A stretch of 47,021 nt of DNA from Enterobacteria phage cdtI: sequence record NC_009514.1. One strand, given 5' to 3'. Shown here piece by piece: positions 6,001 to 9,000 of this stretch (the first letter of the stretch is position 1; each line of letters starts with the position of its first letter). Position numbers: made by a program.

Positions 6001-9000
6001 TGGTTTATGCCATTCTGACGTCTAACCCGAAAATCTCCACAGATAATGTAAGTCTGTTCGATAAAGCGAAACATGCAAACGTACTGGAGAGCGCTGCAAT
6101 GGACGTGGCATCGCTGGATAAAGCCCGCCAGTTGATGCGCGTTCAGAAAGAGGGGGAGCGTCATCTGAATATTCGTCCTGCGTTCGTACTGGTACCGACG
6201 GCGATGGAGTCTGTTGCTAACCAGGTCATTCGCTCCTCAAGTGTCAAGGGGGCTGACATTAACGCCGGTATTATTAACCCGGTGAAAGATTTTGCGACCG
6301 TTATTGCAGAGCCTCGTCTTGATGATAACAGCCAGACCACCTTCTACCTGGCTGCGTCCAAAGGCTCCGATACGATTGAAGTGGCTTATCTCAACGGTGT
6401 GGATACGCCATATATTGATCAGATGGAGGGCTTCAGTGTGGATGGCGTGACAACGAAAGTGCGTATTGACGCCGGTGTCGCGCCAGTTGATCACCGCGGT
6501 CTGGTGAAATGTACGGCGTAAACGTCGCAGACAACAACTCTGATGGCCCGTAAGGGCTTTTTTTGTACCTGAAATCAGCCCCTGAACGGGGCTGTGCGGA
6601 GACAGTTATGGCAAAGAATTTTGTAGAAGAAGGAAAAACGGTGGCGATTGTTGCCAGTGCAGCCATCAGCAGCGGAGATCTGGTGCAGGTGGGTGATGTT
6701 TTTGCGGTGGCGCTGACCGATATTCCACAGGGTGAAACAGGCGACGGCATGACCGAAGGTGTGTTTATCCTGCCTAAGCTGAAAACGGATGACATGAAAA
6801 CGGGTAAGAAGGTTTATCTGAAGTCCGGAAAAGTTCAGCTGACTAACAGCGGCTCTGATCCGCTGGTCGGGGTTGTCTGGGCAGATGCCGGAACCAGTGC
6901 AGAAGAAGTGCCGGTAAAACTCAATGTCTGATCCCTTTTCTCGGCTGGCAGCGCGTATGGATGCGATCACGGTCAGAAAGATGGGAAAGACAGCCTCGAT
7001 TAATGATGTCGATATGGCTGTGATCCCGGGCGAAACACTGGCAGAGCTGAATGCTCTGTCCGGACCTGCTGTCTCTCTGGTGGTGTTTTCTTTGGGATAC
7101 CGCCCACGGCGCGGGGATCGCGTTGTTTATGACGGACAACATTGGACGGTCACACGGCATGAACGACCAACGGTAAGCCAATGATCACTCCTGAGTAAAG
7201 AGGTGTGGGATGAAGGGGCTTGAGAATGCCATCCGCAATCTGAACAGCCTTGATACCCGTATGGTGCCACAGGCCAGCGCATGGGCGATAAACCGTGTGG
7301 CACAGAAAGCGGTCTCGGTTGCCACCCGGCAGGTTGCCGGGAATACCGTTGCGGGAGATAACCAGGTGAAAGGGATACCCCTGAAACTGGTACGTCAGCG
7401 TGTCCGGGTGTTTAAAGCCAGTCCGTCAGGAAAAATGACGGCCAGGATCCGCGTCAACCGGGGCAATCTGCCCGCCATTAAGCTGGGGACAGCCCGGGTC
7501 AGACTGGCCCGGCGTGGTGGAAAACTGCAGTACCGTGGCAGTGTGCTGAAGGTGGGTAAATATCTTTTCCGGGATGCGTTTATTCAGCAACTGGCGAATG
7601 GTCGCTGGCATGTGATGCGGCGTATTGATGGCAAAAATCGTTACCCCATTGATGTGGTGAAAATCCCGTTGTCCGGACCGCTGACACAGGCATTTGAAGA
7701 TGCCCGCGACCGCATCATTGCTGCGGAAATGCCGAAACAGTTGGGTTATGCACTGAAACAACAACTGAGGTTATGGCTGACCCGATGAACCGACATACAC
7801 AAATCCGCCAGGTCGTACTGGCACGCCTTCGGGAACAGTGTGGAGACAGCGCCACGTTTTTTGACGGGCTTCCGGCATTTGTTGATGCGCAGGAACTGCC
7901 TGCCGTGTCGGTGTGGCTGAGTGATGCTCAGTACACCGGAAAAATGACGGATGAAGATGACTGGCAGGCTGTTCTGCATATTGCTGTCTTCATCCGGGCA
8001 CAAGCACCGGATTCAGAGCTGGATATGTGGATGGAGAGCACCATTTTCCCGGCCCTGAATGATGTACCGGCACTTTCCGGACTCATCGACACCCTGATCC
8101 CACTCGGTTTTAACTATCAACGTGATAATGAGATGGCCACCTGGGCGATGGCGGAAATCACGTACCAGATCACGTACACGAATTAAGGAGCTGGTAATGA
8201 CCACACCAAATCCACTGGCAAAAACGAAAGGTGCGGGAACGACGTTCTGGATGTATACCGGCAACGGCGACGCATTTGCGAACCCTTTGTCGGACACTGA
8301 CTGGCTGCGTCTTGCGATGGTGAAGGATCTGCAACCTGGCGAAATGACCGCTGATGCAGAAGATGACACTTATCTCGATGATGAAGATGCAGACTGGAAA
8401 ACGACAACCCAGGGGCAGAAATCCGTTGGTGATACTTCGGCGACGCTGGCCTGGCGTCCGGGTGACAGCGGGCAGAAAAAACTGGTTCAGTTGTTCGACT
8501 CCGGTGAAGTCTGCGCGTTTCGTATCAAATATCCCAACGGCACTGTTGATGTTTTCCGTGGCTGGCTGAGCTCACTGGGTAAAACCATTGCCTCAAAAGA
8601 CGTGATGACCCGCACAGTGAAAATCAGCGGTGTGGGGCGTCCGTATCTGGCAGAGGAAGGCACTGAAACCGTGGGCGTTACCGGGCTGACGGTGGCACCG
8701 GCATCTGCCAGTGTAAAAGTGGGAGCAACCACCACGCTGACCTTTACAGTAAAACCTGACGGAGCCAGTGACAAAGCGATCAGTGTGCATTCGACAGATC
8801 CACAGACTGCCACGGTGACCCTGAACGGGCTTGTGGCCACGGTGAAAGGCGTGAAGCAGGGCAGTGTCAGCATTGTGGGCATGACTTCTGACGGCGATTT
8901 TGTGGCAGTGGCTACGGTGGCTGTCAGCGCCGCAGGTTAACAGGACGATACTCATCATTTGCCCCGGTTATCCGGGGCTTTTTTTCAGGTGGAGAACATG

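What the first reader, a model, noticed from the sequence alone, without database searches (positions are those of the whole stretch)
8650..8940. Ig-like C-terminal domain on the major tail tube protein
The last ~90 aa of V form a separate Big_2-type segment rich in Thr/Val/Ser, likely decorating the tail exterior and possibly aiding surface adsorption.
Basis: partly seen in the sequence, partly recalled or inferred. Interest (0 to 1): 0.2.

Follow-up and report, generated by a model that had tools for sequence, protein, structure and literature searches.

The report
Ig-like domain on lambda-type tail tube protein
The end of this phage's tail tube gene does encode an immunoglobulin-like (Big_2) domain, the well-studied counterpart of the one on phage lambda's tail tube protein gpV, so the finding is correct but ordinary.

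Summary
Confirmed and already known. The gene at 8197-8940 (+) encodes a 247-aa homologue of lambda major tail protein gpV. It has two domains:
- Residues 18-152 match Pfam Phage_TTP_12 (E 1e-66).
- Residues 161-241 match Pfam Big_2 (E 2.5e-12; 47 bits against a cut-off of 22.8).

The whole protein aligns end to end with solved lambda gpV structures (E 8e-87). The C-terminus aligns with 2L04, the NMR structure of the lambda gpV Ig-like domain (E 6e-14, about 43% identity).

An alignment-based AlphaFold model gives an eight-strand beta-sandwich for residues 163-244 (pLDDT 82-95). It superposes on 2L04 at TM 0.82 and 2.3 A.

The segment is 44% Thr+Val+Ser, against 24% in the N-terminal domain. 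The gene order around it is that of lambda (Z-U-V-G-T-H).

The gene is 100% identical to a prophage gene in E. coli E2348/69 and 97-99% identical to genes in phages mEp460, Ayreon and Tritos.

Across 57 alleles the Ig domain is under purifying selection, but a weaker one than the tube core (dN/dS 0.22 against 0.045). That fits an exposed accessory domain.

Display on the tail exterior follows from homology to lambda cryo-EM structures. An adsorption role remains an untested literature hypothesis. In lambda, removing the domain cuts activity 100-fold while tails still form.

The parts
8185..8190 (+). Shine-Dalgarno AAGGAG, 6 nt upstream of the V start codon. It overlaps the TAA stop of the upstream U gene (8184-8186).
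   Evidence: Read directly from the sequence. The U ORF ends at 8186.
8197..8940 (+). Major tail tube protein gene, a lambda gpV homologue of 247 aa plus a TAA stop.
   Evidence: Continuous ORF. PHROG 41 'major tail protein' matches residues 1-246, E 5e-123. Lambda gpV structures 6P3E/7T4F/8IYK match at E 8e-87 over residues 1-245. The same coordinates are annotated in E2348/69.
8248..8652 (+). N-terminal tube-forming domain (residues 18-152), which makes the hexameric ring and lumen.
   Evidence: Pfam Phage_TTP_12, E 1.2e-66, covering the full 135-position profile. It is 62% identical to lambda gpVN. Foldseek hits to 2K4Q/7T2E/8K36 give TMt 0.62-0.66.
8653..8676 (+). Inter-domain linker (residues 153-160, EEGTETVG).
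   Evidence: pLDDT is below 50 at residues 154-156 and there is no secondary structure until residue 163. It is the least conserved stretch, with 57% mean pairwise identity. The flexible region of lambda gpVN ends at residues 149-153.
8677..8919 (+). Big_2 Ig-like domain core (residues 161-241). The structural domain by homology to lambda gpVC is residues 157-247, nt 8665-8937.
   Evidence: Pfam PF02368, E 2.5e-12, 47 bits against a cut-off of 22.8. 2L04 matches at E 6e-14. The AlphaFold2 model has pLDDT 82-95 and eight strands. Foldseek gives 2L04 TMt 0.82 at rmsd 2.3 A over 87 columns, and the 7QUZ Big_2 domain at rmsd 1.4 A.

Best explanation
Nucleotides 8665-8937 encode the gpV-C type Big_2 immunoglobulin-like domain of a lambda-family major tail tube protein, joined in frame to the tube-forming N-terminal domain by a short flexible linker. 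No frameshift is needed.

Shown here: the sequence family, the two-domain architecture, the beta-sandwich fold, lambda-type gene order, and purifying selection on the domain.

[quoted passage not shown] They contribute nothing to the DNA channel. Their effect is on how well the tail works.

Most likely mechanism: the domains lie along the tube surface, touch the beta1-beta2 loop of the neighbouring subunit, and form a loose surface lattice that supports efficient assembly or activity of tails. A secondary possibility is weak multivalent contact with cell-surface carbohydrate. In lambda, removing the domain leaves tails assembled but lowers biological activity about 100-fold.

The confidence of 0.95 is for the identity of the domain and its exterior display. 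The assembly/stability mechanism on its own I would put at about 0.45.
For: Sequence family and architecture:
- Phage_TTP_12 at residues 18-152 (1.2e-66) and Big_2 at residues 161-241 (above the gathering score).
- colinear match to full-length lambda gpV chains (7.9e-87) and to the isolated Ig-like domain 2L04 (6.1e-14).
- PHROG 41 'major tail protein' matched along its full length.

Fold:
- the C-terminal domain has pLDDT 82-95 and eight strands. The low-confidence segments 1-13, 45-77 and 154-156 coincide with the flexible regions reported for lambda gpVN by NMR (1-14, 50-78, 149-153).
- structural superposition on 2L04 (TMt 0.82) and on Big_2 of 7QUZ (rmsd 1.4 A).

Context and selection:
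- the neighbouring genes are Z, U, V, G, T, H, M, L, as in lambda.
- dN/dS is 0.22 in the Ig domain against 0.045 in the core across 57 alleles. The domain is selected for, but less tightly than the core.
- mean pairwise identity is 60% in the Ig domain against 80% in the core.

Literature:
- the lambda Ig domain protrudes from the tube, contacts the neighbouring subunit's beta1-beta2 loop, and adopts three surface arrangements. Deleting it lowers activity 100-fold while tails still form.
Against: - Nothing contradicts the identity of the domain.
- The mechanism is inferred entirely from lambda, whose Ig domain is only about 43% identical to this one.
- A single-sequence AlphaFold run was uninformative (pLDDT 40). 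Only the alignment-based model is confident.
- No ligand, assembly or adsorption data exist for this protein.
Confidence: 0.95

Rival explanations
1. Adsorption aid. The roughly 190 exposed Ig-like domains bind cell-envelope carbohydrate (LPS or other glycans) weakly and multivalently. This holds the virion at the cell surface and speeds the search for the gpJ receptor.
For: - This is the standing hypothesis for phage Ig-like domains (Fraser et al. 2006, as cited).
- The nearest non-phage structural match is a Big_2 domain of a carbohydrate-active enzyme, the Big_2-CBM56 region of beta-1,3-glucanase (7QUZ).
- The domain evolves faster than the core, as expected for a part that meets variable host surfaces.
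Against: - The reviews say this 'remains to be experimentally verified'.
- dN/dS is 0.22 overall, so there is no sign of diversifying selection.
- The 17 variable residues among close alleles split about evenly between predicted strands and loops. They do not cluster in one patch.
- The phage already carries dedicated adhesins: gpJ with a receptor-binding domain, and a side tail fibre.
Confidence: 0.3
2. Adherence to mucus. The tail Ig-like domains bind mucin glycans in the gut, as proposed for T4 Hoc, and so keep the phage where E. coli hosts are found.
For: - The idea is quoted for Ig-like domains.
- The gene is widespread in gut and pathogenic E. coli prophages. It is 100% identical in EPEC E2348/69 and is present in 2634 of 5426 complete E. 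coli genomes.
Against: - There is no evidence of any kind for gpV-type domains.
- Hoc carries I-set domains, not Big_2.
- Nothing could be tested here.
Confidence: 0.07
3. The segment is not a separate domain. It would be a low-complexity Thr/Val/Ala-rich tail, or the product of a frameshift or a mis-called ORF.
For: - The composition is skewed.
- Long antisense ORFs overlap the region (8487-8882 and 8593-8958, minus strand).
Against: - The Pfam match is above the gathering score.
- There is a match to a solved structure.
- The predicted sandwich is confident.
- The ORF is continuous and has a strong RBS.
- Selection in the plus-strand frame is purifying.
- The antisense ORFs are what Val/Thr/Ala-rich coding sequence is expected to produce.
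Confidence: 0.01

Closest known systems
[quoted passage not shown] 2010; in-tube cryo-EM 6P3E, 7T4F, 8IYK, 8K36)
   Same: - Same position in the same protein family.
- Same Pfam family (Big_2) and the same length.
- Colinear alignment without gaps.
- Same predicted eight-strand sandwich (TMt 0.82).
- Same gene neighbourhood.
   Different: - Only about 43% identical in the Ig domain, against 62% in the tube domain.
- This lineage (mEp460, Ayreon, Tritos and the E2348/69 prophage) has a 60-nt V-G spacer with a terminator-like hairpin. Lambda has 15 nt.
Tail tube proteins of phages mEp460, Ayreon, phi458 and Tritos, and E. coli prophage proteins (WP_000211121.1 in E2348/69)
   Same: 96.9-100% DNA identity over the whole gene. 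They are annotated as major tail protein, phage tail tube protein or Ig-like domain-containing protein.
   Different: Essentially nothing. The window's allele is one of at least 57 near-identical alleles.
Phage T5 pb6 C-terminal Big_2 domain (5NGJ)
   Same: A Big_2 Ig-like domain at the C-terminus of a siphophage tail tube protein, exposed on the tube.
   Different: - pb6 has a duplicated tube domain and forms trimeric rings.
- Its Ig domain projects orthogonally to the tube and makes no contact with the tube domain.
- Sequence identity is about 13-18%.
SPP1 gp17.1* FN3 domain; HK97 gp12 I-set domain
   Same: An Ig-fold decoration at the C-terminus of a siphophage tail tube protein.
   Different: - They belong to different Ig superfamilies.
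- The SPP1 domain is added by a +1 programmed frameshift and is dispensable.
- Here the domain is fused in frame and is present on every subunit.

Membership tests
Pfam Big_2 (PF02368), bacterial Ig-like domain group 2 | Profile score above the curated gathering threshold | tested here: met
   47.0 bits (segment alone) and 44.4 bits (whole protein) against a cut-off of 22.8. Profile positions 2-79 of 79 are covered.
Pfam Big_2 (PF02368), bacterial Ig-like domain group 2 | Ig-like beta-sandwich fold | tested here: met
   The AlphaFold2 model built with a 34-sequence alignment has eight strands between residues 163 and 244 and pLDDT 82-95. Foldseek gives 2L04 TMt 0.82 at rmsd 2.3 A, and the 7QUZ Big_2 domain at rmsd 1.4 A over 87 columns. 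This is a prediction, not a solved structure.
Lambda gpV-type major tail tube protein (Phage_TTP_12 + Big_2) | N-terminal lambda-type tube domain | tested here: met
   PF16461, E 1.2e-66, full profile. 62% identity to lambda gpVN.
Lambda gpV-type major tail tube protein (Phage_TTP_12 + Big_2) | Full-length colinear homology to gpV, including the C-terminal domain | tested here: met
   phmmer aligns residues 1-245 to residues 1-245 of 6P3E, E 7.9e-87. PHROG 41 matches residues 1-246 of 245 profile positions.
Lambda gpV-type major tail tube protein (Phage_TTP_12 + Big_2) | Position in the tail gene order Z-U-V-G-T-H | tested here: met
   Pfam hits: Minor_tail_Z at 7210-7788, Phage_tail_U at 7773-8186, TAC protein G at 9001-9387, and tail protein T at 9396-9725 in the -1 frame. 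The tape measure ORF at 9667-12753 was listed but not scanned against Pfam. The collinear E2348/69 prophage annotates it as tape measure protein.
Lambda gpV-type major tail tube protein (Phage_TTP_12 + Big_2) | Ig domain displayed on the outer surface of the assembled tube | not testable with these tools
   Inferred from lambda cryo-EM descriptions. No virion structure of this phage was examined.
Lambda gpV-type major tail tube protein (Phage_TTP_12 + Big_2) | Removing the domain lowers tail activity about 100-fold without abolishing tail formation | not testable with these tools
   Reported for lambda (Pell et al. 2010). Testing it here needs genetics. Indirect support: dN/dS of 0.22 shows the domain is maintained by selection.
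Carbohydrate-binding phage Ig-like domains (hypothesis of Fraser et al. 2006) | Measurable binding to cell-surface glycans | not testable with these tools
   This is only a hypothesis in the literature. No binding-site motif is defined that could be checked.

The most novel reading that the evidence does not exclude
The Ig-like domain of this mEp460-type lineage is only about 43% identical to lambda's and accumulates amino-acid changes about five times faster than the tube core. It might therefore have its own specific ligand, such as a particular LPS, O-antigen or mucin glycan. In that case tail-tube decoration would contribute measurably to host range or gut retention of these very common E. 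coli prophages.
Probability: 0.1. Interest if true: 0.4.

Novelty: already known. Interest (0 to 1): 0.07.

Why it matters
It matters little beyond correct annotation. The feature is the textbook gpV C-terminal Ig-like domain, solved by NMR in 2010 and seen in several recent lambda tail cryo-EM structures. The same gene is found in known phages and in roughly half of complete E. coli genomes.

The one open question it touches is what tail-tube Ig-like domains actually do: assembly or stability, or weak glycan adhesion. That question is long-standing, and this sequence does not make it more testable than lambda itself does.

Tried and rejected
- **Single-sequence AlphaFold2.** Mean pLDDT was 40, so the model was unusable. 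It was replaced by an alignment-based run.
- **Pell 2010 and Fraser 2006.** Neither paper is held in the library. Their results are cited through reviews and cryo-EM papers.
- **Was the domain added by programmed frameshift, as in SPP1 gp17.1*?** Rejected: the ORF is continuous from 8197 to 8940.
- **Is the segment only a compositional artefact, or are the overlapping antisense ORFs (8487-8882 and 8593-8958, minus strand) the real genes?** Rejected on profile, structure and selection evidence.
- **Diversifying selection or a hypervariable patch in the Ig domain.** Not found. dN/dS is 0.22, and the variable positions are spread over strands and loops.
- **Odd architectures among database homologues.** These were U-V and V-G fusions, a fusion of the V N-terminal domain to the gpJ receptor-binding domain, and duplicated V. 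All are explained by stop-codon loss, deletions or frameshifts in single contigs or defective prophages. They are not alternative natural domain designs.

Full report
**Observation**

The window carries one uninterrupted ORF at 8197-8940 on the + strand. It has an ATG at 8197, an AAGGAG Shine-Dalgarno at 8185-8190 and a TAA stop at 8938-8940. It encodes 247 aa.

The compositional claim holds. Thr+Val+Ser make up 43.8% of residues 152-247 against 23.8% of residues 1-151.

**Identity of the protein**

- Pfam finds Phage_TTP_12 ('Lambda phage tail tube protein') at residues 18-152, E 1.2e-66.
- Pfam finds Big_2 (PF02368) at residues 161-241. The score is 44-47 bits against a gathering cut-off of 22.8, E 2.5e-12 when the segment is scanned alone.
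- PHROG 41 'major tail protein' is matched over its whole length, E 5e-123.
- Against the PDB, the protein aligns colinearly (1-245 to 1-245) with lambda gpV chains from tail cryo-EM entries (6P3E, 7T4F, 8IYK, 8K36), E 7.9e-87. It aligns similarly with phage YDC107 gpV (9MFE).
- Residues 160-245 align with 2L04, the NMR structure of the lambda gpV C-terminal Ig-like domain, E 6.1e-14.
- Identity to lambda gpV is 55% overall: 62% in the N-terminal domain and 43% in the C-terminal domain.

**Fold**

A single-sequence AlphaFold2 run was uninformative, with mean pLDDT 40. With a 34-sequence alignment of homologues the result was different:
- The C-terminal domain is predicted with pLDDT 82-95.
- It forms eight beta-strands between residues 163 and 244.
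- A low-confidence linker at residues 154-156 separates it from the tube domain.
- The other low-confidence segments (1-13 and 45-77) coincide with the loops that NMR found disordered in monomeric lambda gpVN (1-14 and 50-78). This is a useful internal check.

Foldseek against the PDB returned these matches:
- Full-length lambda gpV first (E 5e-27).
- The isolated Ig-like domain 2L04, with TM 0.82 normalised to the target and rmsd 2.3 A over 87 columns.
- A bacterial Big_2 crystal structure (7QUZ), rmsd 1.4 A over 87 columns.
- Further down the list, Big_2-bearing phage proteins including T5 pb6.

The fold test is therefore passed.

**Context**

The flanking genes are those of the lambda tail module:
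- Z at 7210-7788 and U at 7773-8186, upstream.
- G at 9001-9387 and T at 9396-9725 (in the -1 frame), downstream.
- Tape measure protein H at 9667-12753.
- M, L and gpJ, then Lom and a side tail fibre.

The first 25 kb of the window match phages mEp460, Ayreon and Tritos at 95-97% identity over about 75% of their length. So the window is an mEp460-type lambdoid phage or prophage.

The V gene itself is 100% identical to a prophage gene of EPEC E2348/69. It is 96.9-98.7% identical to genes in 15 deposited phages. A related gene is present in 2634 of 5426 complete E. coli genomes. Some databases already label close homologues 'Ig-like domain-containing protein'.

**Evolution**

In an alignment of 30 family members, mean pairwise identity is 80% in the tube domain and 60% in the Big_2 domain. 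Invariant columns make up 40% of the tube domain and 6% of the Big_2 domain.

Among 57 distinct near-identical alleles from 79 IMG/VR loci, synonymous diversity is similar in the two halves (0.057 and 0.064). Non-synonymous diversity is five times higher in the C-terminal part. This gives dN/dS of 0.045 in the N-terminal domain and 0.22 in the C-terminal domain.

The Ig domain is therefore maintained by purifying selection, so it is functional, but it tolerates more change, as expected of a surface-exposed accessory module. The 17 variable positions are spread over predicted strands and loops and form no obvious hypervariable patch. That gives no support to an arms-race receptor-binding role.

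**Mechanism**

Shown here:
- Domain family, fold and architecture.
- In-frame fusion, with no frameshift as in SPP1.
- Gene order.
- Selection on the domain.

Inferred from lambda:
- gpVN forms the hexameric rings and the lumen.
- gpVC projects from the outer surface, lies roughly parallel to the tube axis and touches the beta1-beta2 loop of the neighbouring subunit.
- Removing it leaves tails assembled but reduces biological activity 100-fold (Pell et al. 2010).

I therefore favour a role in tail assembly efficiency, stability or activity through a loose surface lattice. Weak multivalent glycan adhesion (the Fraser et al. 2006 hypothesis) is a secondary possibility. The reviews state explicitly that it is unverified.

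**Comparison and novelty**

This is the same domain, in the same protein, in the same gene order as lambda gpV-C, and the exact sequence is already in public phage and E. coli records. All membership features that could be tested were met. Exterior display and the deletion phenotype cannot be tested with these tools. The verdict is that the finding is already known and of low interest.

**Side observations**

1. Unlike lambda, which has a 15-nt V-G spacer, this lineage has a 60-nt spacer. It holds a 7-bp all-GC hairpin followed by T7 (8961-8978; centroid -16.2 kcal/mol). The hairpin is conserved in 81 of 82 related loci. It may set the high V to G/GT/H expression ratio. This was not pursued.
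2. V and G share a reading frame and the spacer has no stop codon. Rare database variants with a mutated V stop are therefore 396-aa V-G fusions.
3. Shigella dysenteriae prophage copies carry an in-frame deletion of about 20 aa inside the Big_2 domain.
4. Some defective prophages fuse the V tube domain to the gpJ receptor-binding domain.

Noticed in passing
window 8941-9000 (hairpin at 8961-8978, T-run at 8979-8985): A terminator-like stem-loop (GCCCCGG-TTAT-CCGGGGC followed by T7) sits in the 60-nt spacer between V and G (RNA centroid -16.2 kcal/mol). It is kept, with at most 3 mismatches, in 81 of 82 related loci. Lambda has only a 15-nt V-G spacer and no such element. It could attenuate transcription or stabilise the V message, and so set the high ratio of V to G/GT/H.
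   Followed up: partly
window 8938-9003: V (frame of 8197) and G (frame of 9001) are in the same reading frame, and the spacer contains no stop codon. A single TAA is all that separates them. Database variants P0004 and P0005 (TAA to Lys) and P0006 (TAA to Ser) are 396-aa V-G fusions, each from a single contig. These are probably mutations or sequencing errors rather than programmed readthrough.
   Followed up: partly
window 9370-9400: The T ORF (9396-9725) is in the -1 frame relative to G (9001-9387), as in the lambda G-T programmed frameshift. The only candidate slippery site near the end of G is GGAAAAG at 9375-9381. From my own knowledge, lambda uses GGGAAAG, so this differs by one base.
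   Followed up: no
related proteins P0070, P0073, P0076 (Shigella dysenteriae prophages; P0070 seen on 83 contigs): These are 227-aa V homologues with an in-frame deletion of about 20 aa inside the Big_2 domain. The equivalent of VGATTTLTFTVKPDGxSDK is missing, and Pfam no longer detects Big_2. It is a natural Ig-domain lesion, probably in a defective prophage.
   Followed up: partly
related proteins P0101, P0106 (E. coli): The V tube domain (92-94% identical to the window's) is fused directly to the gpJ C-terminal receptor-binding domain (PF12421). This implies a deletion from V to the end of J in degraded prophages.
   Followed up: no
window 15144-18641: The gpJ homologue carries four further Ig-type modules: FNIII-A_GpJ, Ig_J, Ig_J_second and the Ig_GpJ_C receptor-binding domain. 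The virion therefore displays several classes of Ig-like domain besides the one on V.
   Followed up: no
window 4302-6521, 18711-19310 and 19369-20688: The head gene is a fusion of a ClpP-like protease and the major capsid protein (739 aa). A Lom/Ail outer-membrane protein gene and a side tail fibre gene with collagen-like repeats follow gpJ. All three are typical of mEp460-type lambdoid phages.
   Followed up: no
window 9667-12753 compared with L001 10501-13556: The tape measure ORF is intact in the window (1028 aa). The otherwise identical E2348/69 prophage has frameshifted tape measure and gpJ genes. The window is therefore not that defective copy, although the two share a 100% identical V gene.
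   Followed up: no
window 8487-8882 and 8593-8958, minus strand: Two long antisense ORFs (131 and 121 aa) overlap the Ig-domain coding region. Nothing suggests they are genes. Purifying selection acts in the plus-strand frame.
   Followed up: partly
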